Part shown: one piece after another, positions 45,996-62,484 of the stretch
How the letters are laid out: each line of letters opens with the position of its first letter
How positions within the stretch are numbered: position 1 is the first letter of the stretch
NCBI GenBank assembly: GCA_041657885.1
Contig: JBBABB010000001.1
Span: 267,184-331,183 of the forward strand
Direction: 5' to 3'
DNA: 64,000 bases
Source: Minisyncoccota bacterium
GTDB taxonomy: Bacteria > Patescibacteriota > Minisyncoccia > Phycocordibacterales > UBA9973
Position numbers and translations under genes: made by a program
Notes under the pieces: model-generated
The model's database searches: none
Told to the model about the DNA's origin: nothing
The model's input: the letters and a program-made list of their open reading frames with translations, nothing else

Positions 45996-48173
45996 TTATT
46001 CTAATACTTTACGTAGCACATCTTCCGGCACTTCCCTTTTTGCCTTGCGTTTCTGCCAAGAATTTGTATTAGGTTTTATTTCGGGTTCTGGTTGCGAAAC
46101 AGGAATGTCTTTTTGAGATGGTCTGGCTCCTCGTCCTCCCTCATCCGAGGACCTCTCAAAAAGATTTTCCTGTGAAGCAACCTCTATCTTCTCTTCTTTT
46201 TTTACTTCTACTGATTGAATCACTTTTTCTTTCTCTTTAATCCTTGATAACACATCTTTAAGCGTTGCTTTCTTTTCTTCTGACGCCTCTTTTGTGGGTA
46301 AAGTATTTGCTACTCTTACATTAGAATTATTATTTTCTTTTAATGCAGAAAGAGACATAGGTTCTTGTTTAGAAATAGGCGCAACAGTTTCCTCTATTTT
46401 AAATCCTTTTTCTTCTGCCCCCTCCTTACCTCCTTTAGCAATTTTCTCCAACAATCCTCGCAAAAGTGGAGAAGGCCCAGAGTGTTTCTTTTTTTCTACA
46501 AAAGAAGTCCTTCTGTCATTGGTATTAACATTGTTTGTTGCTTGAGATGAACCCTGTGGTTTATATGAAGAATCTTTCGGCTTACTAAACCCAGAAAAAT
46601 TATTGTGAGGTGCCCCAGCTTTTTGTTCCATGGGTTTAAATTCTATCCCCAACATCGCTAACGGCTCAGTCGAAACTTTTTCTTCTTGATGAGCTGAACG
46701 AGATGCCACAAATCCGCTTTCTGGTTTAAGCTCACCACTTTTAATTTTGTACATACACTCTTTACAATAAACAGGCCTACCTTCTTTGGGCTCAAAAGGG
46801 ACCATCGTGGACTTACCACAATTTGAACAATCAGCTTTGTATTTCGCATCACCATCTCCGACTTGAAGCATTCCACTCCACTTTGAAATTTCATCTTCAA
46901 CTTCTGCTCGTGGACGAGTATATAGTTTACGTGATGACTCTATAATTTTATCTTTAACACCTTTTGATAAATCTATTTTTATTGGAGGAAGAGTTGTCGC
47001 CGAGAATGGACGACTAGTTACACCATCAATCATTAACTTAACATAAATATGAAAGTTGGGTAAATTTACCAAATCTAGTGCTGTAAATTCAGGCTCAAAT
47101 TCTTTTTCTAAAAATTCGGCATCATCTCCACCAACACGGAAAACAATCATAGTCCCAACGTTACCGAAAACAGCATCACGAACTTTTGTGCTATCTTTAC
47201 TCTCAAGTTGAGCTGTATATTGGTGAGCCACAGTAAGATTGAGTCGATATTTACGAGCTTCAGAGAGAATATTTGCAAATGCATCCGTCGCAAAGTTTTG
47301 GAATTCATCAACATACAAATAAAAATCTTTTCTATCTTCTTCGGGAATTCTGACACGCTCCATCGCGGCAAGCTGAATTTTTGTAATAATCATACCTCCT
47401 AAAAGTGCTGAATTGTCTTCACCGATACGCCCTTTTGAAACGTTGACGAGAAAAATTTTCCCCTCATTCATTATTTTGAAAATATCAATAGTTGATTTTG
47501 GCTGACCAACAACATTACGAATAATAGAAGTTGAAAGGAATTGACCGACCTTATTTTGAATCGGAGCTATTGCTTCATTACGAAATTGGTCACGCCATTG
47601 TTCATATTCATGAACCCAAAAAGCTTTAACAACAGGGTCTTTCAAATTACCAATTATCATTTGTCGATAATCTTTATCCACCAAGAGTCTTGGGATACCT
47701 AGAAGCGTTGTCCCTGGAGTATCAAGAAGCGCAAGAATTGCATTATTCAAAATGTATTCCATACGAGAACTCCAAGCATTAGCCCAAATCTTCGTAAAAA
47801 TACCCATCAGCCCTGATGCTACTAAGTGTTTATATTTTGGATCGTCAAGTTGTATAACATTAAAACCGATATGAAATTCTGTATCAGCTGGATTAAAATA
47901 TATTACATCTTTTACTCTGTGGTCTGGAATAAGATGGAGGATTTCTTCTACGGTCTCTCCGTGCGGGTCCACCACACAAACGCCTTCACCATTCTGAATA
48001 TTCTGGGCAATAAGATTGGAAAGAAGAACAGATTTACCAGTACCTGACTTTCCCAAGATATACATATGCTGGCGACGATCTTTACGTTTTATGCCAAAAA
48101 TAGCATTAGTACTACGGAAGTTTGTTCTACCAAAATAAGTAATGTCTCGATTGTGTGGAATTTCATTTTCCAT
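45996..48173 (-). CDS. FtsK/HerA/T4CP-superfamily P-loop ATPase (DUF87 or TraG/VirD4-like, soluble) with an internal CxxC zinc ribbon and a long low-complexity C-terminal tail (paralog B)
   Basis: Walker A ILGKSGTGKSVLLSNL is followed by VCVVDPHGE, Walker B FYLYVDEFQNF and VAHQY. The zinc ribbon CSNCGKSTMVPFEPKEGRPVYCKEC sits at about aa 440-470, followed by a roughly 250 aa K/E/S/P-rich tail. There is no N-terminal TM segment. Confidence 0.6.
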   Translation of the reverse strand: MENEIPHNRDITYFGRTNFRSTNAIFGIKRKDRRQHMYILGKSGTGKSVLLSNLIAQNIQNGEGVCVVDPHGETVEEILHLIPDHRVKDVIYFNPADTEFHIGFNVIQLDDPKYKHLVASGLMGIFTKIWANAWSSRMEYILNNAILALLDTPGTTLLGIPRLLVDKDYRQMIIGNLKDPVVKAFWVHEYEQWRDQFRNEAIAPIQNKVGQFLSTSIIRNVVGQPKSTIDIFKIMNEGKIFLVNVSKGRIGEDNSALLGGMIITKIQLAAMERVRIPEEDRKDFYLYVDEFQNFATDAFANILSEARKYRLNLTVAHQYTAQLESKDSTKVRDAVFGNVGTMIVFRVGGDDAEFLEKEFEPEFTALDLVNLPNFHIYVKLMIDGVTSRPFSATTLPPIKIDLSKGVKDKIIESSRKLYTRPRAEVEDEISKWSGMLQVGDGDAKYKADCSNCGKSTMVPFEPKEGRPVYCKECMYKIKSGELKPESGFVASRSAHQEEKVSTEPLAMLGIEFKPMEQKAGAPHNNFSGFSKPKDSSYKPQGSSQATNNVNTNDRRTSFVEKKKHSGPSPLLRGLLEKIAKGGKEGAEEKGFKIEETVAPISKQEPMSLSALKENNNSNVRVANTLPTKEASEEKKATLKDVLSRIKEKEKVIQSVEVKKEEKIEVASQENLFERSSDEGGRGARPSQKDIPVSQPEPEIKPNTNSWQKRKAKREVPEDVLRKVLE

Positions 48174-53170: not shown

Positions 53171-54700
53171 CTAAATCAACGGCTCGCCACCTTTTTCTCC
53201 TTTTTTTGGTTTCTCTCTAGGGTTTGATTCTTTATTTATACTTTCACTTTTATTTTCTTCATTACCTATTTCTTCTTCACCTTCTTCTTTTTTATCTGCC
53301 ATTATGGCAGCTTTTTCTTGAGCAGACCTTATGATAGTTGCTTCTTCTTCAGCAATTAATCTCTGCGCTTCACCTGCCAAAATAGAATATTTGCGTCGAG
53401 AGGCCTCTATAGCTTCTTGACGATAAGAAGGATGAGTGGCTGGCAATACACGCAATGTTTCAGCAGAAAATGGGTCATAACTTTCTCCATCAATTGTCAT
53501 CTTAATAAAAAATTCCCCAACTCCAAGATTAATCATATCTTTTACATCAAAAATAGGAGCAAAATCCGATTTAAGTTTTACGGCGTCATCTCCCCCAACA
53601 CGAAAGGCAATAATAGAACCTGTATTACCAAGTACTGCTTCTTCAACCTTAGGCATAAGTTGACCAACATATTGGTGGGCTACTATAAGATTTATGCCAT
53701 ATTTACGAGCTTCTGAAATAATATTTTCAAAAGTATCAGTAACAATATTATGGAACTCATCCACATATAGATAAAAATCATTACGATCTTGTGGTTCTAA
53801 TTTAGCACGAGCCATACCAGCTTGCTTAATTTTAGTAAGAAACATTGCTCCAAAGAAAGAAGAGTTCTCCTCACCTATTTTCCCTTTTGACAGATTAATC
53901 AAAAGAATCTTTCGCTCATTCATTAATTCTTCCAGATCAATTTTATTTTCTTTTTGTCCAAAAATATTACGGAGCATTGGGTCAGAAAGAAACTGGCCTA
54001 ATTTGTTAACCAGAGGAATAATAGCATCAGTATCAAATTTCTCAGACCAGTCAGCGAATTCTATTGCCCAGAATCTTTTTACCATATCATCCCCTATATA
54101 CTCCACAACCTTCTGACGATAGTTACGATCAGTAAGCATACTAATCATTCCCCGCATAGTAGCATGAGGATAATCAAGAAGAGCAAGCGTTGTAAAACGA
54201 AAAACGTGCTCAAGACGAGGAGTCCAGTTTGCTCCGAATTGTTTTCTTAAAACTTCTATCAATCCTTGAGTGAGTTGATGTTTAAAAGTTGGGTCGATGT
54301 TTGCTAGAGGATTAAATGATGAAGGATAATTTATGTCGCCTGGGTCGATTATACAAATATCTTCAATTCTCTCTTTAGGAATAAAATTTAAAATATCTTC
54401 AATAAGCTCTCCGTGTGGGTCTATAACACAAACACCTTGGCCGTAAGCTATATCTTGTCTAATCATTAATTCTAAAAGCTTAGACTTACCAGTACCTGAC
54501 TTTCCAATTATGTACATATGACGTCTACGGTCAATACGCTTGATACCAAAGACGAATTTCTTTTCTTCTAGAGATGCAACATAGTTCGTACGCCCAATAA
54601 AAACAACATCACTTGGGTCTGATTTCCCGAGAGTTGGAAGATCTGGAGGCGGCGGAGCATATTTAATTATCTGAATTTTGTTTGGCTTATTGAGTGACAT
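53171..54700 (-). CDS. FtsK/HerA/T4CP-superfamily P-loop ATPase (paralog A, shorter, lacking the zinc ribbon and tail)
   Basis: The 509 aa protein has Walker A IIGKSGTGKSKLLELM, then VCVIDPHGE, Walker B FYLYVDEFHNI and VAHQY. It is collinear with residues 1-430 of the ATPase at 45996-48173. Confidence 0.6.
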   Translation of the reverse strand: MSLNKPNKIQIIKYAPPPPDLPTLGKSDPSDVVFIGRTNYVASLEEKKFVFGIKRIDRRRHMYIIGKSGTGKSKLLELMIRQDIAYGQGVCVIDPHGELIEDILNFIPKERIEDICIIDPGDINYPSSFNPLANIDPTFKHQLTQGLIEVLRKQFGANWTPRLEHVFRFTTLALLDYPHATMRGMISMLTDRNYRQKVVEYIGDDMVKRFWAIEFADWSEKFDTDAIIPLVNKLGQFLSDPMLRNIFGQKENKIDLEELMNERKILLINLSKGKIGEENSSFFGAMFLTKIKQAGMARAKLEPQDRNDFYLYVDEFHNIVTDTFENIISEARKYGINLIVAHQYVGQLMPKVEEAVLGNTGSIIAFRVGGDDAVKLKSDFAPIFDVKDMINLGVGEFFIKMTIDGESYDPFSAETLRVLPATHPSYRQEAIEASRRKYSILAGEAQRLIAEEEATIIRSAQEKAAIMADKKEEGEEEIGNEENKSESINKESNPREKPKKGEKGGEPLI

Positions 54701-54751: not shown

Positions 54752-56065
54752 ATGGAGAAGGAAGAAAAGAAAGAACCATTATCACAAGAAGGAGACCTGC
54801 CCGAAATGCACAAGCAGGCGGGAAATTATATTAAAAAGCTTGGCCCAGGAATTATTACTGGAGCAGCCGATGATGACCCCGCTGGAATTGCTACCTATTC
54901 TCAAGCTGGTGCTCAATATGGAACAGGTCTAACTTGGCTTGCTGCTTGGACATATCCCTTTGTAGCTACCGTTCAAGAAATGTGCGCTCGTATTGCTCTC
55001 GTCACCGGACGAGGTTTGGCCGCTAACATAAAACATACCTATTCAAGAGAAATACTTTACGTTTGTACAATTCTTTTATTTTTTGCTAACACATTAAATA
55101 TTGGTGCTGATTTAGGGGCCATGGCAAAAGCAGTCCAGCTACTAGCTCCCGGGGCTTCATTTATTTTTTTAGTTGTGTTTATTGGTATCGTTGGATTATT
55201 TTTAGAAATATTAATTCCCTATAGAAGATATACAAAATATCTCAAATGGTTAGTTATCGCCGTTTTTGCATATATTGCCACTGGATTAATTATCAATATG
55301 GATTGGTCTGTGTTGCTACGAGATGGACTTATTCCACAAATTACATTTTCTAAAACTCAAATTCTTCTCATCACCGGAATATTGGGAACTACCATTTCTC
55401 CATATTTATTTTTCTGGCAAACTTCACAAGAAATAGAAGAGGAAATTTCCGAAGGCAAGACGACTGTTCGCTCACGCAAAGGAACTACCCACGCCGAAAT
55501 TAAAGAAATGCGAGTTGATATTTGGGCTGGAATGTTTTTGTCTAATCTCGTCATGTTCTTTATTATTGCTGTCTGCGCTAATACTCTTTTTGTCAATGGA
55601 ATTACAAACATAAGTACCGCCGCCGATGCTGCTCGTGCACTTCGTCCTCTTGCTGGACAATGGGCATCGTTACTTTTTGCCGTAGGAATTATTGGAACTG
55701 GATTGTTGGCTATTCCAGTACTGGCGGGTTCCGCTGCTTACGCAATTTCTGAAAGTTTTGGATGGAGAGAAGGATTATACCGAAAATTTAAAACAGCTCA
55801 TGCATTTTATGGAGTCATCGCTGTTTCAATTATCATCGGTATTTTAATTAATTTTATTGGCATTGACCCGATTAAAGCGCTCATTTATTCGGCCATTGTA
55901 AACGGAGTTGTTGCTCCAGTAATTCTGATATTCATAGTTAAAATAAGTAGTAGTAAAAAAATAATGGGTGAATTTAAAAATTCCCTGATAATAAAAATAT
56001 TAGGATGGACAGCAACCATATTTATGGGCATTGCCGCAGTTGCTACAATTATTTCCTTGTTCTAA
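54752..56065 (+). CDS. mntH: NRAMP-family divalent metal (Mn2+/Fe2+) transporter
   Basis: The 437 aa protein has about 11 TM helices and an NRAMP signature near the N-terminus (GPGIITGAADDDPAGIATYSQAGAQYG). Confidence 0.7.
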   Translation: MEKEEKKEPLSQEGDLPEMHKQAGNYIKKLGPGIITGAADDDPAGIATYSQAGAQYGTGLTWLAAWTYPFVATVQEMCARIALVTGRGLAANIKHTYSREILYVCTILLFFANTLNIGADLGAMAKAVQLLAPGASFIFLVVFIGIVGLFLEILIPYRRYTKYLKWLVIAVFAYIATGLIINMDWSVLLRDGLIPQITFSKTQILLITGILGTTISPYLFFWQTSQEIEEEISEGKTTVRSRKGTTHAEIKEMRVDIWAGMFLSNLVMFFIIAVCANTLFVNGITNISTAADAARALRPLAGQWASLLFAVGIIGTGLLAIPVLAGSAAYAISESFGWREGLYRKFKTAHAFYGVIAVSIIIGILINFIGIDPIKALIYSAIVNGVVAPVILIFIVKISSSKKIMGEFKNSLIIKILGWTATIFMGIAAVATIISLF

Positions 56066-56084
56066 TAAAAATGTAATTGGGTTT

Positions 56085-56495
56085 TTATCCATGGTTTAGT
56101 TTATTTCGGAATCTCTTATTTTCAAGTTGGCGGATACCTGCTTCACTAAAACCGAAATGATGCCCGACTTCATGCCAGACAACTTCGTAAACTAGCTCCT
56201 TTATTTTTTCTGGGTCGCCTGCGCAAATATTTTCTATCGGTTTCTGAAAGATAGTAATCTTGTCGGGTAGAACATTGAAATACCCTTCCCCCCGCTTCGT
56301 CCGAGGTACACCTTCATAGAGCCCAAGAAGTGTTTGTCTGAGCATTATATTTTTCTCTCTTAATTTTCTGCTTCGAGTCTCGTCTTCCACAAAAAAAGCA
56401 ACATTGTTGATTTTCTTTTTTATGTTATCTGGAAACCTCTTTAGTGCGTCCGCCACCAACTTTTCAAAATCTTCTGTTCTCATATTGTGCCCCAC
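56085..56495 (-). CDS. Zincin-like metallopeptidase (DUF1025/Zincin_1 family)
   Basis: The 136 aa protein has an HExxH motif in VVWHEVGHHFGFSE. Confidence 0.5.
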   Translation of the reverse strand: MGHNMRTEDFEKLVADALKRFPDNIKKKINNVAFFVEDETRSRKLREKNIMLRQTLLGLYEGVPRTKRGEGYFNVLPDKITIFQKPIENICAGDPEKIKELVYEVVWHEVGHHFGFSEAGIRQLENKRFRNKLNHG

Positions 56496-56500
56496 TAATA

Positions 56501-56755
56501 TTACTCTGCCGGGAAAATTGCCAAACCTTCCCCTGCTTTTTGTGAAAGCTTTATTGCTATCTCTTGTCCCTTTTTCCCTGACTGGATTGGCTTATGATCC
56601 AGTTCCATGGAAGTGATTGTCTCCTCAAACTCTTGGCCACCGTGTTTTATTTTTATCTTGTCTCCAACTCGAAGAACTTCATTGAGTTTGACCACAGCTA
56701 CGCTAATCTTGTCGTACCAGTGGGTTATTTTCCCAATTGAATTATTTTTTACCAT
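56501..56755 (-). CDS. Hypothetical small beta-barrel protein (EF-Tu domain-2-like)
   Basis: The 84 aa protein has the G-x-I-x-G ... GD-x-I pattern (IGKITHWYDKISVAVVKLNEVLRVGDKIKIK) of translation-factor beta-barrel domains. Confidence 0.3.
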   Translation of the reverse strand: MVKNNSIGKITHWYDKISVAVVKLNEVLRVGDKIKIKHGGQEFEETITSMELDHKPIQSGKKGQEIAIKLSQKAGEGLAIFPAE

Positions 56756-56858
56756 AAAATTTATATGTTAAATTGTTTTATAAAATCGACTCCTTTTTTC
56801 TCTCTAATACTATAATTGTAATACAAACAACAAAAAAAGAAAACAAGCCAACCAAATA

Positions 56859-56890
56859 ACATTCTCACATTCTTGAGAATGTGAGAATGT
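56859..56890. repeat. Family E perfect palindrome (acattctcacattcttgagaatgtgagaatgt) immediately downstream of the ArsR-family gene
   Basis: It is a 32-bp near-perfect inverted repeat. Related copies lie at 57184-57219, 10723-10754 and 15403-15432. Confidence 0.8.
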
Positions 56891-57171
56891 TAAAATTGGC
56901 TAATAAAAAGACAGAAATTCTTTCCGTAGGGGGAAATAGTATGTTCTACTTTGCGTCCTCTATATGATTTATTTAGCAAACCGGCTTGAACTAGACGTCG
57001 AGTATGTTCAGATATAGTTTTCATATTACAATCCAGACTCTCTGCAATATCTTCTAATGTAATCCCTGAATTTTTAAACACAAGCATTAATATCGCAATA
57101 CGACGATGATTTGCTACTCCCTTAAAATGCCTTTCAAGTTGTTTGGCTGTTTTTAATTTATTTGTTTTCAT
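56890..57171 (-). CDS. ArsR/SmtB-family winged-helix transcriptional regulator
   Basis: The 93 aa protein has an HTH in ANHRRIAILMLVFKNSGITLEDIAESLDCNMKTISEHTRRLVQAGLL followed by a wing (SYRGRKVEHTI). Confidence 0.65.
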   Translation of the reverse strand: MKTNKLKTAKQLERHFKGVANHRRIAILMLVFKNSGITLEDIAESLDCNMKTISEHTRRLVQAGLLNKSYRGRKVEHTISPYGKNFCLFISQF

Positions 57172-57183
57172 ATTTTTATTCTA

Positions 57184-57219
57184 CCACATTCCGACATTCT
57201 TGAGAATGTCGGAATGTGG
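57184..57219. promoter_or_regulatory. Family E 36-bp perfect palindrome (ccacattccgacattcttgagaatgtcggaatgtgg) in the promoter region of the ArsR-family gene; candidate operator
   Basis: It lies between the sppA stop (57234) and the ArsR start (57171). It shares the core ACATTCTTGAGAATGT with three other copies. Confidence 0.5.
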
Positions 57220-57233
57220 TTTAATACTTATTT

Positions 57234-58130
57234 TTACTCCCAGCAAATCTCTAGTTTCTCCCCTATTACTCCTTCGAGATATTTCTCAACTTCATTTATT
57301 CCCCCTATCTCATCTATCAAACCTAGTTCTTTCGCTTTCTCTCCAAGTACTGTTGAACCATCGGCAAATTTTTTGACTTCCTCTATCGGTATTTTACGAT
57401 TATCTGAAACTGCTTTGACGAAATTCTCATAAATAATATTTACATCTCTCATAAACAAATCTTTTTCTTCTTTAGTTAAAGACATATCAGGACTTCCAGA
57501 ATCTTTAAATTTACCTGAACTTAACTGCTCATATGCATATCCCTCTTTTTTATTATTTTCTGCATTATTCAAATAAGACATTGTCACTCCAATACTTCCC
57601 ACATCTGAATTCTTTGATGCCCATATTCTACTTGCGCTACTTATTGACCAATATGCAGACGAAGCTCCTATATCTCTTATGAAAGCAATGACTGGCTTAT
57701 CACTATTTTTAATCGCGTCAGCAATCTCTTCTCCAGCTACAGGTGAACCACCAACTGAATCCACTTCAACTACAATAGCTTTAATATCAGGATTTGCATT
57801 GGCATTTTGTATTGACCAGAGAACGTTTTCACTCGCAACAACATCATAATCAACAGAAGGGTCACCCTCTGCATGCTCCGGTATATACGTCATTACAGTT
57901 CCATGCAAGTTAATACCTGTAACTGTGCAATCCTCATTTATATATTTATCAGAACCATCTGAAAATGAATTATTACCAGAAGGCCAACCAATCACAAAAT
58001 AAAGGATAATTCCCCCAATCCCGATACCTAAAGCAATAATCAATATCCACCTAATAGGTGACACAAGTTTTTTAAAAAATGTTTTAATTTTTTCCAATAT
58101 AATTTTCCCTTTAAATGTCGGCTCGTCCAT
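57234..58130 (-). CDS. sppA: Signal peptide peptidase SppA (S49 family, 36K type)
   Basis: The 298 aa protein has an N-terminal TM segment and an S49 catalytic region (IRDIGASSAYWSISSASRIWASKNSDVGSIGV). Confidence 0.75.
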   Translation of the reverse strand: MDEPTFKGKIILEKIKTFFKKLVSPIRWILIIALGIGIGGIILYFVIGWPSGNNSFSDGSDKYINEDCTVTGINLHGTVMTYIPEHAEGDPSVDYDVVASENVLWSIQNANANPDIKAIVVEVDSVGGSPVAGEEIADAIKNSDKPVIAFIRDIGASSAYWSISSASRIWASKNSDVGSIGVTMSYLNNAENNKKEGYAYEQLSSGKFKDSGSPDMSLTKEEKDLFMRDVNIIYENFVKAVSDNRKIPIEEVKKFADGSTVLGEKAKELGLIDEIGGINEVEKYLEGVIGEKLEICWE

Positions 58131-58226
58131 AAAGTTATACTTTCATCATAAACCTTTTTATAAAAGATGACAAATTATTCCATAATAAGAACTGCTCTTG
58201 TTATACAATGGAGGATATAATTGAAG

Positions 58227-58541
58227 TTATTTTATCATTTTAAAAACGACTTCATCACCATCAAAAAGTGGAGAATATTGTTTTGGTGGATAACCATTGA
58301 TAGTAAACCCTAATTCCCCTGGCTTACAAACTTTCATCATTTTGGGATATTCCATAAAAATACTATTAAGTAAAAACATAAAATTAGCACTAGTACTCAT
58401 CGCTACTTTGTGACCAGAAGTACCTGTTATTTTTTCTAAATTTTTATCAAATATAACATTAATAGAGATAGAACTTGAAAAATTTTTTTCATCTTGAATT
58501 TCAGGCTTATATGATTTTACTTTTTGTATTTTTGTTTTCAT
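58227..58541 (-). CDS. Hypothetical protein
   Basis: The 104 aa ORF overlaps the upstream ORF by 4 nt, which suggests translational coupling. I recognise no family. Confidence 0.35.
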   Translation of the reverse strand: MKTKIQKVKSYKPEIQDEKNFSSSISINVIFDKNLEKITGTSGHKVAMSTSANFMFLLNSIFMEYPKMMKVCKPGELGFTINGYPPKQYSPLFDGDEVVFKMIK

Positions 58542-58753
58542 AAAATTATTCTTTTCTTAATCTCATCTAGCACTTTTAAAAACTCCTCAATGTGATCATG
58601 AAATATGACGATATTATTTTTGATTCGCTCTTCATTTTCTTGCCTAGATTCTGTGATGTGGAGATATTTCTCACCTGATTTAGTCATCCTTATATCAAAA
58701 AAGTATGTCCGACCCCCGGCTTTAATGTTTTTTGAATAAATAGATTCTTGCAT
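58538..58753 (-). CDS. PUR-alpha-like (DUF3276-like) nucleic-acid-binding protein
   Basis: The 71 aa protein has KAGGRTYFFDIRMTKSGEKYLHITESR, which matches the bacterial PUR-like repeat pattern. Confidence 0.35.
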   Translation of the reverse strand: MQESIYSKNIKAGGRTYFFDIRMTKSGEKYLHITESRQENEERIKNNIVIFHDHIEEFLKVLDEIKKRIIL

Positions 58754-58774
58754 AATATTTATTATTTAGTTATT

Positions 58775-59374
58775 TTATTTTTTCCAGATAATATGTCCAT
58801 TAATACTATGCTTTTCATAAGTTTCTAGGATATCGGTACAAAACTTTTCTAATTCCCTATTATTTTCACTTTTTGCTAATTCATATAAACGAATGAACAT
58901 TCTCTTGCCAGTTTCGGTTTGTTTTAAATTTTTCTTAATAAAATTATGTTGTGAGCATAAAATTTGTCCATTTTCAATTGTTGCTTCACCTCCAAGATCT
59001 TTGGGTTTTATATGATCAACATGTAAATCAATACCGTCTTTTTTACCTCTGCCACAAATTACACATTTATATCCATCTCTTTTCAGAATTATCACTTTTT
59101 GAGCAACAGTAAAATCTTCCAATTCTCTTTTGTATGCTTTATCGGGATCATATTTATAAATCCCTTTTGCAATTTTTATTAAAAAACCACTTTGAGATAA
59201 ATGACGAATAGCTCTGTCGGGGTCACGAAAAACATTGCCTGTTCTTTTCAGATAAGTTGATACCACCCAATCAACAACTTCTGGGTGTTTTATATCTCTA
59301 TTTGGATTTTTCTTAAAAAACTCAATAATAAGGTTTTTTTGAATATTATTATTTTTCTTATTGTTTTTTTTCAT
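58775..59374 (-). CDS. HNH endonuclease (candidate restriction endonuclease partner of the adjacent methyltransferase)
   Basis: The 199 aa protein has an HNH/zinc-finger core DGYKCVICGRGKKDGIDLHVDHIKPKDLGGEATIENGQILCSQHN. The N-terminal winged-helix-like domain is K-rich. Confidence 0.65.
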   Translation of the reverse strand: MKKNNKKNNNIQKNLIIEFFKKNPNRDIKHPEVVDWVVSTYLKRTGNVFRDPDRAIRHLSQSGFLIKIAKGIYKYDPDKAYKRELEDFTVAQKVIILKRDGYKCVICGRGKKDGIDLHVDHIKPKDLGGEATIENGQILCSQHNFIKKNLKQTETGKRMFIRLYELAKSENNRELEKFCTDILETYEKHSINGHIIWKK

Positions 59375-59378
59375 AAAA

Positions 59379-60305
59379 TTATTTCAATAAATTTAATTGA
59401 TTAATTTTTGCTTCTTCTTGTAAGCGTTTTATTGCCATATTACAATAATCTTTATCTATATCAATACCAATTCCTTTTCTATTATGTAAATAAGAAGCAA
59501 TAAGAGTTGACCCACTACCTAAAAATGGATCCAATACTATATCACCAATAAAACTAAAAAGTTTTATGCATCGTTTTGGTAATTCAACTGGAAATGGTGC
59601 AGGATGTCCACCTGCCCCCTTTTTACTTTGTCCATTAAATGTCCAAATGCCATTTGTCCAATCCATAAATTCTTTTTTAGTAATATCATTTTCTCTACTA
59701 TTTCCAGTTTTTTTCCAGCTATCTTTATATAAAACTAATATTAGTTCTACTGGTGCAATAACATAAGGAGCAGAGGCAGACATAAAAGAACCCCATGCGG
59801 TACGACGAGATATATTTCCTTCGTTCCAAATAATTGTTGAGTGATATTTCCAGCCAACATCTTTTGCAATTTTTGTAATATCCGCACCAACAGACTTCTG
59901 TCCTCCTTTATTTTTATCAAGTGGAATGTTGAGTAAAAATCGTCCTTCATTTTTAGCTAAATCAAAACATTTTTTAATCCATTTTTGAGTAAATTCTAAA
60001 TAATCTTCATAGGTTAAATTATCACCATTGGAATTATAATGAATGTCAACATTATATGGTGGCGAAGTAATAATCAAATCAACTGAATTGTTTGGAATTG
60101 TGGAAATTTTTAAAATATCATCATTAAAAATTTTTATATTCTTTGTTTCAAAATAAACCCCATCCATTTTTTTTGCAATTGGAACAGAGTATGAGGCCAC
60201 TGAAGTCTCGCGAACTAAATCATTTTTCAAAGATGGTTTTTTATAATATTTCCTGATTATTTTTTGTGTTTTTTTATAAATCTTTTTTTGTTTTTTATTT
60301 TTCAT
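59379..60305 (-). CDS. DNA methyltransferase, beta-class amino-MTase (N4-cytosine or N6-adenine)
   Basis: Motif IV DLIITSPPYN precedes motif I VLDPFLGSGSTLIAS, the beta permutation found in PF01555 N4/N6 methyltransferases. Confidence 0.75.
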   Translation of the reverse strand: MKNKKQKKIYKKTQKIIRKYYKKPSLKNDLVRETSVASYSVPIAKKMDGVYFETKNIKIFNDDILKISTIPNNSVDLIITSPPYNVDIHYNSNGDNLTYEDYLEFTQKWIKKCFDLAKNEGRFLLNIPLDKNKGGQKSVGADITKIAKDVGWKYHSTIIWNEGNISRRTAWGSFMSASAPYVIAPVELILVLYKDSWKKTGNSRENDITKKEFMDWTNGIWTFNGQSKKGAGGHPAPFPVELPKRCIKLFSFIGDIVLDPFLGSGSTLIASYLHNRKGIGIDIDKDYCNMAIKRLQEEAKINQLNLLK

Positions 60306-60342
60306 TAGTCATATTATATCATATTTAAAAGCTTTTTGTATA

Positions 60343-60603
60343 TTACCAACTCTTATACGCATCTTTGCGATGGTGGATTCTAAGGATTAAAATAACGAGT
60401 TCTTTTTTTCTTATTTCATATATAATCCGAAAAGGCCAGGCTCGCATAGAATATTGATTTGGTAATTCACCACTCAATTTCTTCCCAGAAAAAGGATACT
60501 TGAGAATTGCTTCAAGAATTACACGAGCTTTTATACGGTCTGCATCTTCTAAATTAGCGAGTCCTTTTTTTGCTCTTGGTTTTAGAACGAGTATAAACGC
60601 CAT
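60343..60603 (-). CDS. RelE/ParE-family type II toxin
   Basis: The 86 aa protein has WPFRIIYEIRKKELVILILRIHHRKDAYK, which matches the RelE/ParE C-terminal pattern. Confidence 0.6.
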   Translation of the reverse strand: MAFILVLKPRAKKGLANLEDADRIKARVILEAILKYPFSGKKLSGELPNQYSMRAWPFRIIYEIRKKELVILILRIHHRKDAYKSW

Positions 60604-60925
60604 ATTTTCTTTTTGGTTTTTCTGCGACCTTTACTGCCATCCCCCATTCTCTTTTTAAATCATCAAATGTGGACCATTTTTTCCATTCACCAGTACGAAA
60701 TGCTTCATCTGCTTCTGCAATGTCTTTTTTAATATCAGGAAATTCTTCTAAAACAGAAATTGTTTCAATCAATGATTCATATTCCTCGGCAGACATAATA
60801 ACTACCTTTGGTTTGCCACCTTCGGTAATAGTATAAACTCTGTTTGGTATTTGCACTTCTTCGGCAATATCAAATATGCGCTTACGAGCCTCTGTTATTG
60901 AAATTGTTCTTTTTGTATCCATCAT
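60554..60925 (-). CDS. Phd/YefM-family antitoxin (overlaps the toxin start; basic C-terminal extension)
   Basis: The N-terminus ISITEARKRIFDIAEEVQIPNRVYTITEGGKPKVVIMSAEEYESLIETISVLE is Phd/YefM-like. It lies upstream of and overlaps the RelE-like ORF. Confidence 0.6.
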   Translation of the reverse strand: MMDTKRTISITEARKRIFDIAEEVQIPNRVYTITEGGKPKVVIMSAEEYESLIETISVLEEFPDIKKDIAEADEAFRTGEWKKWSTFDDLKREWGMAVKVAEKPKRKYGVYTRSKTKSKKRTR

Positions 60926-60964
60926 ATGTGTACATTATAACGTACATACTTTTTTAAAGCAAGC

Positions 60965-61624
60965 TTATAAAATTTTTGCTTGTTGAAAACTCAAATAGCC
61001 ACTTTTACTTAAAATGATATGATCTATAATATTAATGCCAAGAATTTTACCAGCTTCCACTAAACGCTTTGTAACTTCTTTATCTTCAGGCGAAGGTTCT
61101 AAATCTCCAGATGGATGATTATGTGCAATAATTATACTCGCTGCATGAAAAGATAATGCAGGTTCAAAAACTTCCCGTGGGTGCACAAGACTGGCATTCA
61201 ATGTTCCGATAGAAATAGTCTGACGTTCTATAAGACAATTTTGAGTATCAAGATAAAAAGCAACGAAATTTTCTCTTTGCAATGTACGAATATCCGCGCA
61301 AAAATTCCAAACATCACTCGCAGAAAGAATTTCTGGTTTATTTTCAGTATTTAATCTTTTTCCTAATTCAAGGAGAGCTGTGATTTGTGAAGCTTTTGCA
61401 GAGCCAAGACCTTTTATTTCTAATAAATCCTTGAGAGTTATTTTTTTAATTCCTATTTTTTTTATCTTTACTAAAATTTTCTTTGATAATTCAAGAACAT
61501 TTAACCCTTGAATTCCAGAACCTAAGAGAAGTGCTAAAAGTTCATAATCTTTTAATTTTTCAGAACCATATTTTGCAAGTTTTTCACGGGGTAAATCTAC
61601 TTTTTGTAAATCTTTAATTTTCAT
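60965..61624 (-). CDS. radC: RadC-like JAB/MPN-domain protein (UPF0758)
   Basis: The 219 aa protein has an N-terminal HhH-like region and the JAMM motif HNHPSGDLEPSPED. Confidence 0.75.
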   Translation of the reverse strand: MKIKDLQKVDLPREKLAKYGSEKLKDYELLALLLGSGIQGLNVLELSKKILVKIKKIGIKKITLKDLLEIKGLGSAKASQITALLELGKRLNTENKPEILSASDVWNFCADIRTLQRENFVAFYLDTQNCLIERQTISIGTLNASLVHPREVFEPALSFHAASIIIAHNHPSGDLEPSPEDKEVTKRLVEAGKILGINIIDHIILSKSGYLSFQQAKIL

Positions 61625-61693
61625 AATTAATTCGTAATTACTCTTCCATCATACTCCTTTTTTCTCATCTTCTCAAACCCCCAAAGAAAAAGG

Positions 61694-61726
61694 TCGCATC
61701 CAATCTGATTGGGCGACCTTAATTAG
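61694..61726 (-). terminator. Hairpin plus T-tract (minus strand) ending an ORF-less transcription unit
   Basis: The minus strand reads AAGGTCGCCCAATCAGATTGGATGCGACCTTTTTCTTTGG, an 8-bp outer stem plus inner palindrome followed by T-rich sequence. Confidence 0.45.
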
Positions 61727-62282
61727 CATCTTGAATTTTCATGGGGGAATTTTTTTGTAAAACTTTTAATAATTAAACAAATTTTTCTGCGTATTTTCGG
61801 CAGTGTTTATTGCCACAGCAATAAACGGAATTGTTATTTAAAGACACTTTCCATTTTGCTGATTTTTTACAATCTGGCTTTAAACAAATTTTTTTTCGAC
61901 TTAAACTCCAAGATACTTTTTGAAAAATCAGTCGTTCTTTTGTCATAGTAGTGCGTTTTTAGATTAACGAATTTTGCCTTCATTTTACAATTTATGGAGG
62001 GAGTTGTCAAATTAAACTTTTTGCACAAAATTAAAAGATGAAATTTTTTGTATGCTTCGCATGCAGAATTATTGTGTATCACGAGTTACTAAGTATAGCG
62101 GACCATGAGTACATTTCTCGCCCGCGACTAAAATTAGTGTTGTATGCTTCATATGCTAAATTATTGTGTATCACGAGTTACTAAATTTTTTGCTTCATTA
62201 AATCGCAAAAAACGTAAGTACTCGCGACCCCGGCTCGGTAATTTTTGTACTCAAAAATTATACCTGCGCCTTCCACAGACTA

Positions 62283-62310
62283 AAAATCCCCAAGCAGTTG
62301 GGGATTTTTT
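62283..62310 (-). terminator. Rho-independent terminator immediately after tRNA-Ala
   Basis: aaaaatccccaagcagttggggatttttt is a 10-bp stem with flanking A and T tracts. The outer repeat cacagac...gtctgtg extends it. Confidence 0.6.
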
Positions 62311-62317
62311 ACGTCTG

Positions 62318-62390
62318 TGGACCTTAGCGGACTCGGACCGCTTGCCTCCTCATTGCAAATGAGGCGCTCTACCAGATGAGCTAAAGGCCC
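62318..62390 (-). tRNA. tRNA-Ala (anticodon TGC)
   Basis: The minus-strand read GGGCCTTTAGCTCATCTGGTAGAGCGCCTCATTTGCAATGAGGAGGCAAGCGGTCCGAGTCCGCTAAGGTCCA has a G3:U70 identity pair, anticodon loop TTTGCAA and an unusual T-loop TCCGAGT. Confidence 0.75.
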
Positions 62391-62484
62391 AATGTAAACA
62401 TCTTACCGTATTTTTATTTTTTTGCAATAGTTAGTTTTATACTTTTCAATAAAAAACAAAAGTGATCTCCCTCTTTTTTATATA

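What the first reader, a model, noticed from the sequence alone, without database searches (positions are those of the whole stretch)
61694..62262. ORF-less transcription unit (candidate ncRNA) between radC and tRNA-Ala, containing a 45-bp direct repeat
On the minus strand a TATAAT hexamer (62257-62262) lies just downstream of the tRNA-Ala terminator, and a strong hairpin plus T-tract lies at 61694-61726. The roughly 550 nt between them has no convincing ORF. The only track ORF, 61867-62082, is low-complexity and basic. The unit contains two copies of gtatgcttc-N-atgc-N-aattattgtgtatcacgagttactaa (62050-62094 and 62143-62187, period 93 bp) and a perfect 9-bp hairpin (61805-61826). I could not match it by eye to RNase P, tmRNA, SRP or 6S RNA signatures.
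Basis: seen in the sequence. Interest (0 to 1): 0.5.

Follow-up and report, generated by a model that had tools for sequence, protein, structure and literature searches.

The report
tRNA-Ala insertion scars plus small gene
The supposed 550-nt non-coding RNA is two things: a stack of conserved, hairpin-rich non-coding modules that pile up behind a tRNA-Ala gene where mobile defence islands insert, and a real, conserved gene for a 57-residue cysteine-rich protein.

Summary
The repeat, the TATAAT and the terminal hairpin are real, with coordinates a few bases off. The unit is not ORF-less.

**Small gene (62010-61686, minus strand).** It has a TTGACA-N17-TAAAAT promoter, a 57-aa Cys-rich ORF (61946-61773) and a long terminator. 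The ORF is open in seven diverged lineages, with in-frame indels only and pN of 0.2-0.45 against pS of 0.5-0.9.

**Non-coding module (62321-62048).** It has a hairpin P that includes the tRNA 3' end, then hairpins H1, H2 and H3. Behind it lies a 5'-truncated second module that keeps the same 45-nt 3' part, and this gives the direct repeat.
- The module family has no Rfam match.
- In the sequences examined it occurs only directly 3' of tRNA-Ala, on the same strand. I found it in about 11 independent metagenome loci besides the window.
- Covariation is strong: 94.6% of cells paired against 84% in shuffles, and 12 pairs changed on both sides.
- The TATAAT lies inside a covarying helix.

**Link to mobile elements.** Related modules are flanked by 14-16-nt repeats of the tRNA 3' end. 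One sits at the far end of a ~10-kb element whose large serine recombinase overlaps tRNA-Ala. A co-occurring strain is nearly identical to the window (97.4% over 1.6 kb, differences clustered) and diverges abruptly inside H2.

**Best reading.** These are stacked end-modules of integrative elements that target tRNA-Ala. Whether they act as RNA or as DNA is unresolved.

The parts
62317..62390 (-). tRNA-Ala(UGC). This is the anchor of the whole arrangement.
   Evidence: ARAGORN; Rfam tRNA, 63.3 bits.
62272..62321 (-). Hairpin P. It is a long stem that starts in the last 4 nt of the tRNA (TCCA) and encloses a CCCC-N8-GGGG-ATTTTT terminator-like core. Its 3' arm carries an inverted copy of the tRNA 3' end (GTGGA).
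   Evidence: Inverted repeats I4 and I8; coordinates; the same layout appears in relatives.
62232..62270 (-). Hairpin H1 (GGCGCAGG-TATAATTTTTG-AGTA-CAAAAATTA-CCGAGCC).
   Evidence: RNAalifold and pair counts show three pairs with changes on both sides: GC/AU, UA/CG and CG/GC. Per-locus folds are identical in shape.
62170..62228 (-). Hairpin H2. It has a 12-bp base with one bulged A and two G-U pairs, a 3/2 internal loop, a 9-bp apical stem of free sequence, and an 11-nt loop that tends to begin GA and end GAA or CGA.
   Evidence: MFE is -21.9 kcal/mol on the sense strand against -14.5 on the antisense strand. The sense strand is the more stable in 10 of 10 loci. The 12-bp base, bulge and 3/2 internal loop are kept in all 10; the 9-bp apical stem with its ~11-nt loop is kept in six, and four loci (L085, L088, L089, L090) have a different apical arrangement. 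Double changes occur in the base (L086, L095) and in 7 of the 9 apical pairs.
62160..62274 (-). The complete 'core-type' module as matched by the covariance model built from nine loci.
   Evidence: Model R1: 132.9 bits, E 1e-35, all 116 positions matched.
62140..62184 (-). Direct-repeat copy A. It comprises the 3' arm of H2, the single-stranded linker ACACAATAATT (62169-62159) and the small hairpin H3 (62158-62141).
62093..62139 (-). The 47 nt between the repeats. This is the last ~40 nt of an 'M1-type' module and ends in GGTCCGCTA (62104-62096), which is a relic of a displaced tRNA-Ala 3' end.
   Evidence: nhmmer with the M1 profile: positions 115-154 match window 62135-62096, E 4e-7. modR profile: E 1e-9. 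In L087 the same module runs on into a full copy of the tRNA 3' end.
62048..62092 (-). Direct-repeat copy B. It is the 3' part of the degenerate, 5'-truncated second module.
   Evidence: The whole second unit (62157-62068) scores only 13.7 bits with R1. The homologous copy in L095 is visibly decaying.
61982..62010 (-). Sigma-70-type promoter of the small gene (TTGACA-17-TAAAAT).
   Evidence: 11 of 12 matches, the best site in the scan. TTGAC(A/G/T)-N15-17-(-10-like hexamer) is kept in eight relative loci (L093, L095, L097, L106-L109), read by eye from the sequences printed.
61773..61946 (-). Gene for a 57-aa, basic, Cys-rich protein (C-x4-C ... CCG-x3-C). It is probably a small zinc-binding protein.
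61686..61720 (-). Intrinsic terminator of the small gene: a long hairpin followed by TTTTT.
   Evidence: Sequence. The stem covaries across relative loci (GGTCGC/GCGACC, GGTCAC/GTGACC, GCCGT/ACGGC, GGCCAT/ATGGCC, GGCCG/CGGCC), read by eye.

Best explanation
The region holds two unrelated features.

**(1) Small protein gene, 62010-61686.** This is an independent, conserved gene for a 57-residue Cys-rich protein.

**(2) Stacked non-coding modules, 62321-62048.** These are the non-coding end modules of integrative elements that insert into the 3' end of tRNA-Ala.
- Each module starts with a hairpin that contains an inverted copy of the tRNA 3' end.
- It continues with hairpins H1 and H2.
- It ends in a shared ~45-nt 3' part: the H2 3' arm, a conserved single-stranded linker, and H3.

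The window holds one complete module followed by the 3' remnant of a second, older one.

**Proposed mechanism.** A large serine recombinase carried by the intact elements recombines the element with the tRNA 3' end. Each insertion pushes earlier elements downstream. Later deletions then remove the recombinase and cargo and leave only the end modules.

**Shown**
- The structure and conservation of the modules, and their exclusive tRNA-Ala linkage in the sequences examined.
- tRNA-3'-end repeats around modules in relatives.
- A recombinase overlapping tRNA-Ala in relatives, with an M1-type module at the far end of one such element.
- A strain-level breakpoint inside H2.

**Inferred**
- That the window's core-type module has the same origin as the M1-type module.
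- That the recombinase is what moves them.
- What the folded structure is for: RNA, single-stranded DNA, or a protein-binding site.
For: **Small gene**
- An exhaustive HMMER search finds five relatives of 54-63 aa, with E from 2e-10 to 7e-4. A profile search adds a sixth.
- The ORF is open in 7 lineages with in-frame indels only. Identity by codon position is 0.59/0.69/0.49. pN is 0.21-0.45 against pS of 0.52-0.88.
- The promoter and the covarying terminator are conserved.
- Only 3 of 35 long ORFs in the window have a Shine-Dalgarno-like motif, so its absence here says nothing against coding.

**Modules: distribution and conservation**
- A 20-mer from the repeat hits 8 metagenome contigs. Six have tRNA-Ala upstream on the same strand; the other two (L085, L088) have no tRNA gene and keep only a fragment of its 3' end ahead of the P hairpin.
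- Three further module-bearing contigs, representing two more independent loci, were found through the small gene (L095 and L096 are the same locus; L108 is the other).
- There are no other copies in the 64-kb window, none in 80 unrelated loci, and none in IMG/VR.
- Module sequence is ~90-100% identical between loci (by eye on alignment A4), although Nramp genes of the same genomes are only 72-77% identical in DNA.

**Modules: structure**
- 94.6% of cells are paired against 84.1+-1.2 in shuffles (0 of 500 reach it). 12 pairs changed on both sides. Slid controls give 31-49%.

**Link to insertion**
- In L084 the whole module is flanked by a 16-nt exact repeat of the tRNA-Ala(GGC) 3' end. In L087 an M1-type module is flanked by a 14-nt repeat of the tRNA-Ala(UGC) 3' end.
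- M1-type modules match the core-type model, E 7e-7 and 5e-5.
- The recombinase family overlaps, convergently, the 3' end of tRNA-Ala (L092, L110, L111), of tmRNA (L112) or of tRNA-Glu (L114-L117).
- In L111, ~10 kb away, an M1-type module (E 4e-7 against the L087 copy) is followed by a degenerate copy of the tRNA 3' end and a terminator.
- The window and the co-occurring L095 are 97.4% identical over 1,635 nt (about 42 differences, clustered in a few stretches). From 62223, inside the H2 5' arm, they diverge to 65-95% in the array and ~55% in the ORF. The H2 allele of L095 matches that of the distant L086.
- Downstream cargo differs between loci: RadC, toxin-antitoxin and methylase-HNH here; DndB, restriction-modification or nothing elsewhere.
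Against: - No recombinase is present in the window or in any array-bearing locus. The only match is the tRNA antisense.
- A core-type module, as opposed to an M1-type one, was never seen at the end of an intact recombinase element.
- Within the window the only trace of a displaced tRNA 3' end is a 9-nt relic, which would mean nothing on its own.
- tRNA-Glu elements of the same recombinase family have no such module at their far end.
- Large serine recombinases normally need only short sites of about 50 bp (my own knowledge), so the elaborate conserved structure is not explained by recombination.
- Covariation and wobble pairs favour the tRNA-sense strand. G-U cells number 19 against 7 A-C cells, and canonical pairing is 94.6% on the sense strand against 90.8% on the antisense. 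This points to a folded single strand, which fits an RNA gene at least as well.
Confidence: 0.6

Rival explanations
1. The module is a stand-alone structured small RNA gene, or a functional 3' trailer of tRNA-Ala. It would be made by read-through of hairpin P or from the internal -10 box. Its 3' part is duplicated because mobile elements use this RNA gene as their target, as happens with tmRNA genes. The RNA itself would have a cellular function.
For: - Covariation is strong and conservation is at tRNA level.
- G-U pairs and U-G changes are tolerated only on the sense strand, and H2 is more stable on the sense strand in 10 of 10 loci.
- The apical loop ends (GA...GAA) and the single-stranded linker are conserved.
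- The 5' part is single-copy, while the 3' part recurs downstream around inserted DNA (L086, L087, window). Dehalococcoides shows the same pattern with 20-bp repeats of the ssrA 3' end bounding tandem islands (PMC3146451).
Against: - There is no conserved promoter. TATAAT becomes CTTAAT or CATAAT while pairing is kept.
- Each module is preceded by a terminator-like hairpin.
- L091 has only the M1-type variant. L092, L107 and L110 have tRNA-Ala with no module at all. The module is therefore dispensable.
- In L084 and L087 whole modules are themselves insertions bounded by tRNA-end repeats.
Confidence: 0.25
2. The modules work as folded single-stranded DNA. Candidates are a transfer origin or another nicking site for an HUH-type enzyme, in which a conserved hairpin arm is followed by a conserved single-stranded cleavage region.
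For: - The most conserved stretch is the 3' arm of H2 plus the following ~10 nt.
- The apical part of the hairpin is free in sequence but fixed in shape.
- There is no promoter, and the position is at the end of an integrative element.
- Y1-type transposase genes lie nearby in L106 and L110.
- Coupling-protein-like genes are conserved neighbours.
Against: - No relaxase or Rep gene was seen in any locus.
- The Y1 transposase genes are not adjacent to modules.
- The coupling-protein genes are syntenic with housekeeping genes and look like core genes.
- H1 and the closing helix of M1 have no role in this model.
Confidence: 0.08
3. This is the first reader's model: one ~550-nt ORF-less non-coding RNA running from the TATAAT at 62262 to the terminator near 61700.
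For: TATAAT and the terminator exist on the same strand. The whole stretch folds with z = -2.7.
Against: - The 3' 60% is a conserved protein gene with its own promoter.
- The two halves occur separately in other genomes. Arrays occur without the gene in L084-L091, and the gene occurs without arrays in L092-L094, L097, L106, L107 and L109.
- TATAAT is inside a covarying helix.
Confidence: 0.02
4. The array is a cis-regulatory leader (riboswitch or attenuator) of the small gene, or an operator array bound by the small protein.
For: It lies directly upstream of the gene's promoter in the window, L095 and L108. The small protein is basic and Cys-rich.
Against: - The promoter lies downstream of the array, so the array is not in the gene's leader.
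- In other loci, arrays are followed by unrelated genes or by a terminator and a convergent gene.
- The gene occurs without arrays.
Confidence: 0.03
5. The two repeats form a minimal CRISPR-like array, or a type III antitoxin repeat array.
For: The repeats are 45 nt with a 47-nt spacer.
Against: - The 'spacer' is conserved between the window, L095, L091 and L108 and belongs to a recognisable module.
- There is no cas or toxN-like gene among the annotated neighbours.
- The repeats carry no CRISPR-like palindrome of their own.
Confidence: 0.01

Closest known systems
Tandem genomic islands at ssrA in Dehalococcoides (ssrA-GIs; PMC3146451)
   Same: - A small structured-RNA gene is the target.
- A recombinase of about 530-540 residues of the large serine family lies next to the target on the opposite strand.
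- Short direct repeats of the target's 3' end bound the islands.
- Several islands or remnants stack downstream, some without an integrase. The paper calls these cis-mobilizable elements and the process accretion.
- In the family studied here, one member also sits on a tmRNA gene.
   Different: - The main target here is tRNA-Ala.
- The stacked remnants are only 90-330 nt and non-coding.
- They carry an elaborate, covarying hairpin structure that has no counterpart in the described ssrA islands.
- The repeated unit in the window is not the tRNA 3' end but the 3' part of the module.
tRNA-gene-targeted genomic islands and prophages in general (att repeats of the tRNA 3' end)
   Same: Insertion at the 3' end of a tRNA gene, restoration of the tRNA, a displaced 3' fragment at the far end, and defence-type cargo (established knowledge; here).
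   Different: Most described cases use tyrosine integrases (my own knowledge). There is no integrase in the window, and the remnants are structured and conserved beyond the att core.
Integron attC sites
   Same: Conserved imperfect inverted repeats with an extra-helical base enclose a central part that is free in sequence and length but keeps hairpin shape, and one strand is favoured. This is how H2 behaves.
   Different: By eye there is no RYYYAAC/GTTRRRY box. No IntI-type integrase is present. The units are not each paired with an ORF cassette. The sequence is highly conserved, whereas attC sites are conserved in structure only.
Unannotated small zinc-ribbon or treble-clef-like proteins
   Same: The length is 54-64 aa. 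There are two pairs of Cys (C-x2/4-C and CCG-x3-C), beta strands and a C-terminal helix.
   Different: There is no Pfam or PHROG family, no PDB sequence match and no Foldseek match. It forms its own small family of seven clusters.

Membership tests
Any Rfam 15 family (incl. tmRNA, RNase P, SRP, 6S, riboswitches, HEARO, retron-type RNAs) | Covariance-model score at or above the family's gathering score. | tested here: not met
   Only tRNA passes. In 61600-62420 the best other hits score 14-26 bits against cut-offs of 47-86. The result is the same in relatives. ARAGORN finds no tmRNA.
tRNA-targeted integrative element (genomic island) | Integrase gene next to the tRNA. | tested here: not met
   There is no recombinase in the window (tblastn; Pfam on neighbours). 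The feature is met in relatives L092, L110 and L111. The window can therefore at most hold a remnant.
tRNA-targeted integrative element (genomic island) | Direct repeat of the tRNA 3' end at the distal boundary. | tested here: inconclusive
   In the window no second copy of the 14-mer is found at up to 2 mismatches; only a 9-nt relic remains at 62104-62096. In relatives the repeats are clear: 16 nt in L084, 14 nt in L087 and 16 of 18 nt in L111.
tRNA-targeted integrative element (genomic island) | Break of synteny or strain-variable cargo starting at the site. | tested here: met
   The window and L095 are nearly identical (97.4% over 1,635 nt) up to 62223 and diverged after it. Cargo differs between loci. 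In L093 and L109 the small gene abuts Nramp, whereas in the window 5.7 kb of genes lie between them.
Structured non-coding RNA (generic) | Helices supported by compensatory changes beyond what relatedness gives. | tested here: met
   12 pairs with double changes (1 of 500 shuffles reaches this), covariation score 0.33 against 0.126 (0 of 500), slid controls far lower. Only 9 sequences were used, so this is supportive rather than proof.
Structured non-coding RNA (generic) | The element is transcribed as a discrete RNA. | not testable with these tools
   No expression data are available. No conserved promoter is present, and a terminator-like hairpin lies upstream.
CRISPR array | Variable spacers between identical repeats, usually with cas genes nearby. 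| tested here: not met
   The spacer is conserved across loci. There are no cas genes among the neighbours.
Retron non-coding RNA | Reverse transcriptase gene directly downstream. | tested here: not met
   Downstream genes differ in every locus. Where they were annotated, none carries a reverse-transcriptase domain; for the rest only ORF lists were read.
Riboswitch or leader of the small gene | Constant association with, and location in the 5' UTR of, the regulated gene. | tested here: not met
   The promoter lies between the array and the ORF. Array and gene occur apart.
Protein-coding gene (57-aa ORF) | Frame kept open in diverged relatives, with an excess of synonymous change. | tested here: met
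   with supporting.

The most novel reading that the evidence does not exclude
The modules may be a previously undescribed class of folded nucleic-acid element carried at the end of serine-recombinase defence islands of Patescibacteria. In the M1 form, the 5' end is an inverted copy of the local tRNA 3' end. It changes with the local tRNA (GGACCTTA in L087 and L091, GGAACGTA in L111). The module plus the displaced tRNA fragment therefore closes into a tRNA-like acceptor helix. Such an RNA or single-stranded DNA could take part in the insertion, excision, transfer or control of the island, or could mimic tRNA-Ala.
Probability: 0.3. Interest if true: 0.7.

Novelty: new variant of a known kind. 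Interest (0 to 1): 0.5.

Why it matters
Patescibacteria have tiny genomes, and little is known about how they gain and lose defence genes. This locus shows a concrete route. A very widespread and highly conserved large serine recombinase family (63-89% identity over the 120 clusters listed) sits on the 3' ends of tRNA-Ala, tRNA-Glu and tmRNA genes. In the two contexts that extend upstream of the recombinase (L113, L114-L116) it carries type I restriction-modification cargo.

The conserved hairpin modules left behind tRNA-Ala are not in Rfam. They give a sequence and structure tag for finding such hotspots in metagenomes. If they are functional as folded strands, they would be a new component of such elements.

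The work also adds a small, conserved, unannotated Cys-rich protein family. It illustrates how a short ORF missed by eye can turn a 'non-coding RNA' into an ordinary gene.

Tried and rejected
- **Rfam.** I ran it at gathering score and at E<=10 on the window and on relatives. Nothing was found beyond tRNA and two unrelated SAM riboswitches.
- **BLAST.** The region has no match in phage or plasmid collections.
- **IMG/VR scans.** Three module patterns gave nothing or only chance 16-mers.
- **RadC synteny.** 80 RadC loci were fetched. The closest (79% identity) has a different upstream gene and no tRNA, so RadC is cargo and not an anchor.
- **tmRNA idea.** The M1 module has no similarity to the clade's own tmRNA.
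- **By-eye ideas.** I considered SRP RNA, RNase P, retron RNA, integron attC, a DGR template/variable repeat pair and a T-box. I dropped all of them for lack of the defining motifs or partner genes.
- **Closing helix.** RNAalifold proposed a helix between TTGTG (P 3' arm) and CACAA (linker). It never varies, and in the window one of the five pairs would be a mismatch (by eye on the sequence). It therefore has no support.
- **Small-protein structure.** The model has pLDDT 76, and Foldseek against the PDB gave no match with E<0.4. Pfam, PHROGs and PDB sequence searches were all empty.
- **Second unit.** I tested whether it folds like the first. The minimum-energy fold differs and the model score is only 13.7 bits, so I treat it as a decayed copy.
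Full report
**1. What is in the sequence**

All features below are on the minus strand, downstream of tRNA-Ala(UGC) at 62390-62317.
- TATAAT lies at 62262-62257.
- Two 45-nt repeat copies lie at 62184-62140 and 62092-62048. They are 41/45 identical and 92 nt apart.
- Their 26-nt core is identical in both copies and occurs nowhere else in the window. No matches are expected by chance.
- A long hairpin followed by a T-run lies at 61720-61686.
- Rfam gives nothing but the tRNA, both at gathering score and at E<=10.

The observation therefore holds, apart from coordinates that are 2-6 nt off. The exception is the statement that there is no convincing ORF.

**2. The 3' part is a protein gene**

- The ORF list contains a 57-aa ORF at 61946-61773: MTKERLIFQKVSWSLSRKKICLKPDCKKSAKWKVSLNNNSVYCCGNKHCRKYAEKFV.
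- It is preceded by the best promoter-like site of the scan, TTGACA-17-TAAAAT at 62010-61982 with 11 of 12 matches. It is followed by the terminator.
- A word-indexed search found only the protein itself. An exhaustive HMMER search of 1.8 billion representatives found five small relatives, 54-63 aa and 45-60% identical. A profile search added a sixth.
- Eleven columns are invariant, including four Cys, a Trp and CCG...RK.
- I fetched the DNA of the relatives. The frame is open in all seven lineages and all indels are in frame. Identity by codon position is 0.59/0.69/0.49. pN is 0.21-0.45 against pS of 0.52-0.88.
- TTGAC(A/G/T)-N15-17-(-10-like hexamer) promoters and a long terminator whose stem covaries are present in every lineage (sequences).
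- Only 3 of 35 long ORFs in the window have a Shine-Dalgarno-like motif, so its absence here means nothing.
- The protein has no Pfam, PHROG, PDB-sequence or Foldseek match. The AlphaFold model (pLDDT 76) shows three strands, a short helix and a C-terminal helix.
- The gene usually lies next to, and convergent with, an Nramp transporter gene.

**3. The 5' part is a conserved, structured, non-coding module tied to tRNA-Ala**

- A 20-mer from the repeat occurs in eight metagenome contigs. Six have tRNA-Ala upstream on the same strand. The other two, L085 and L088, have no tRNA gene and keep only a fragment of its 3' end ahead of the P hairpin.
- Three more module-bearing contigs came in through the small gene: L095 and L096, which are the same locus, and L108.
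- The conserved sequence extends far beyond the repeat and consists of:
  - hairpin P (62321-62272), which begins in the last bases of the tRNA;
  - hairpin H1 (62270-62232);
  - hairpin H2 (62228-62170);
  - a single-stranded linker, ACACAATAAT;
  - a small hairpin H3 (62158-62141).
- H2 keeps its base in all ten loci: a 12-bp stem with one bulged A and a 3/2 internal loop. The 9-bp apical stem of unrelated sequence with its ~11-nt loop is seen in six of them. The four loci L085, L088, L089 and L090 have a different apical arrangement.
- On a nine-sequence alignment, 94.6% of cells pair against 84.1+-1.2 in shuffles (0 of 500). 12 of 35 pairs changed on both sides. Slid controls reach only 31-49%.
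- The sense strand is favoured. It has 19 G-U cells against 7 A-C cells, and H2 is more stable on the sense strand in 10 of 10 loci.
- The TATAAT is in the 5' strand of H1. Its first base changes to C together with its partner (U-A to C-G). In L089 and L090 it reads CTTAAT, so it is not conserved as a promoter.
- Module sequence is about 90-100% identical between genomes (by eye), whereas their Nramp genes are only 72-77% identical in DNA.
- Profile and covariance-model searches find modules only behind tRNA-Ala. There are none elsewhere in the window, in 80 unrelated loci or in IMG/VR.

**4. Why there is a direct repeat**

- The covariance model matches 62274-62160 at 132.9 bits and the next 90 nt (62157-62068) at only 13.7 bits.
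- The 47 nt between the repeats are the last part of a second, related module type, which I call M1. This type is complete in L087 and L091 (nhmmer E 4e-7), and it matches the core-type model at E 5e-5 and 7e-7.
- In L091, L095, L108 and the window, this M1 end is joined to the same 3' part: the H2 3' arm, the linker and H3.
- The window therefore holds one complete module and the 3' remnant of a second. The shared 3' part is the repeat.
- In L095 the second copy is visibly decaying.

**5. Link to mobile elements**

- *Flanking repeats.* In L084 a whole module is flanked by a 16-nt exact repeat of the 3' end of the local tRNA-Ala(GGC). In L087 an M1 module is flanked by a 14-nt repeat of the tRNA-Ala(UGC) 3' end. 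In the window the M1 remnant ends in the 9-nt relic GGTCCGCTA.
- *Strain breakpoint.*
  - L095 comes from the same sample as a near-identical copy of the window (L002). It is 97.4% identical to the window over 1,635 nt, from the methyltransferase gene through the tRNA and H1. The roughly 42 differences are clustered in a few stretches.
  - From 62223, inside the H2 5' arm, identity drops to 65-95% in the array and about 55% in the small ORF.
  - The H2 allele of L095 is that of the distant L086.
- *Variable cargo.* The cargo after the array differs between loci. Here it is RadC, Phd/ParE and a methylase with HNH. Elsewhere it is DndB, restriction-modification genes or nothing.
- *Recombinase.*
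  - In L092 a 529-aa large serine recombinase lies convergent with tRNA-Ala and overlaps it.
  - The family is very large and 63-89% identical across Patescibacteria.
  - In the 8 contexts whose flanks I read, representing 5 distinct loci since L114-L117 are the same place, its 3' end overlaps the 3' end of tRNA-Ala (L092, L110, L111), tmRNA (L112) or tRNA-Glu (L114-L117). In a ninth, L113, ARAGORN found no adjacent tRNA.
  - A GC palindrome follows (GGTCGCGCGC-NTG-CGCGCGAY), which resembles the base of H2.
  - Its last 22 codons are the antisense of the tRNA, which is why the window's tRNA gives the only recombinase match.
  - Type I restriction-modification genes lie upstream of the recombinase in L113 and in L114-L116.
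- *Far end of an intact element.*
  - In L111, ~10 kb from the tRNA and recombinase, an M1-type module (E 4e-7 against the L087 copy) is followed by a degenerate copy of the tRNA 3' end and a terminator. This is the far end of the integrated element.
  - The 5' end of M1 is an inverted copy of the local tRNA 3' end and changes with it. M1 plus the displaced tRNA fragment therefore folds into a closed structure with an acceptor-like helix.

**6. Interpretation**

The most economical reading is that the array consists of end modules of tRNA-Ala-targeting integrative elements, stacked by successive insertions and stripped of recombinase and cargo by deletion. This is the pattern described for tandem islands at ssrA in Dehalococcoides, which also use a ~540-residue serine recombinase next to the target and include integrase-less remnants (PMC3146451).

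Several things are not shown.
- No core-type module was seen at the end of an intact element.
- The window has no recombinase.
- Recombination alone does not explain an elaborate covarying fold.

A plain RNA gene used as an insertion target therefore remains a serious rival (0.25). A single-stranded-DNA site such as a transfer origin remains a minor one.

**7. Verdict**

The finding is real but mis-described. It is not one ORF-less RNA. It is a small conserved protein gene plus a new, Rfam-absent, structured non-coding module family that marks an insertion hotspot behind tRNA-Ala. Interest is moderate (0.5). It would be higher if the modules prove to be functional folded strands of the mobile elements.

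Noticed in passing
L092:348-1937, L110:113-1816, L111:10001-11590, L112:573-2141, L114:10001-11587: A very large family of large serine recombinases, 63-89% identical across Patescibacteria. In nearly all contexts read, its 3' end overlaps the 3' end of a tRNA-Ala, tRNA-Glu or tmRNA gene on the opposite strand. The last 22 codons are the antisense of the tRNA, and a GC palindrome follows. Type I restriction-modification genes lie upstream in L113 and L114-L116.
   Followed up: partly
window 56066-61772: About 5.7 kb of island-like genes lie between the small gene and the convergent Nramp gene (54752-56065). They include RadC, Phd/ParE, an N6/N4 methylase with HNH, DUF3276, NfeD/S49, an HTH protein and a zincin. 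In L093 and L109 the small gene abuts Nramp directly, so there appears to be a second insertion point just after the small gene's terminator.
   Followed up: partly
window 61640-61685: The stretch after the terminator (TTTGAGAAGATGAG...GGAGTATGATGGAAGAGTA) is conserved between the window and the otherwise diverged L095. In the near-identical strain L002 it is where most of the few differences cluster. It may be a recombination junction or a regulatory site.
   Followed up: no
window 61721-61747: A 3'-UTR motif, CCCATGRAAAAT...YCAAGAT, lies just before the terminator and is conserved in six or seven lineages of the small gene, although the ORF is only about 50% identical. No function is known.
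   Followed up: no
window ~56850 vs L001:10773-11697: The near-identical contig L001 carries an extra ~920 nt (a 91-aa ORF and an acylphosphatase gene) that the window lacks. Beyond that point identity drops to 86%. This is strain-level variation at the far side of the island.
   Followed up: no
window 62144-62362 (+): A 72-aa ORF lies antisense to the tRNA, P, H1 and part of H2. Its C-terminus matches the recombinase tail only because that tail is encoded by the tRNA antisense. I regard the ORF as spurious.
   Followed up: yes
window 45996-48173 and 53171-54700: Two TrwB/TraG-like coupling-protein genes, one with a treble-clef zinc finger, are conserved next to CutA1 and a cytidylyltransferase gene in several relatives (L092, L097, L110). 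They look like core genes rather than part of a conjugative element.
   Followed up: no
whole window: Only 3 of 35 ORFs of at least 200 aa have a Shine-Dalgarno-like 4-mer at -20 to -5, which is at or below the background of 8%. This organism apparently does not rely on Shine-Dalgarno pairing.
   Followed up: partly
L106:57-731 and L110:3979-4629: IS200/IS605-type Y1 transposase genes lie close to the tRNA-Ala / small-gene locus in two relatives. L097 has an rve-type transposase fragment directly upstream of the small gene's promoter.
   Followed up: no
L106:1190-1230: A remnant of the H1 5' strand (GTGAAAGGCGCATATAAT) is joined directly to the small gene's promoter. L107 encodes the identical protein but has an inverted tRNA-Ala there instead. 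This suggests a recombination-prone point just upstream of the promoter.
   Followed up: no
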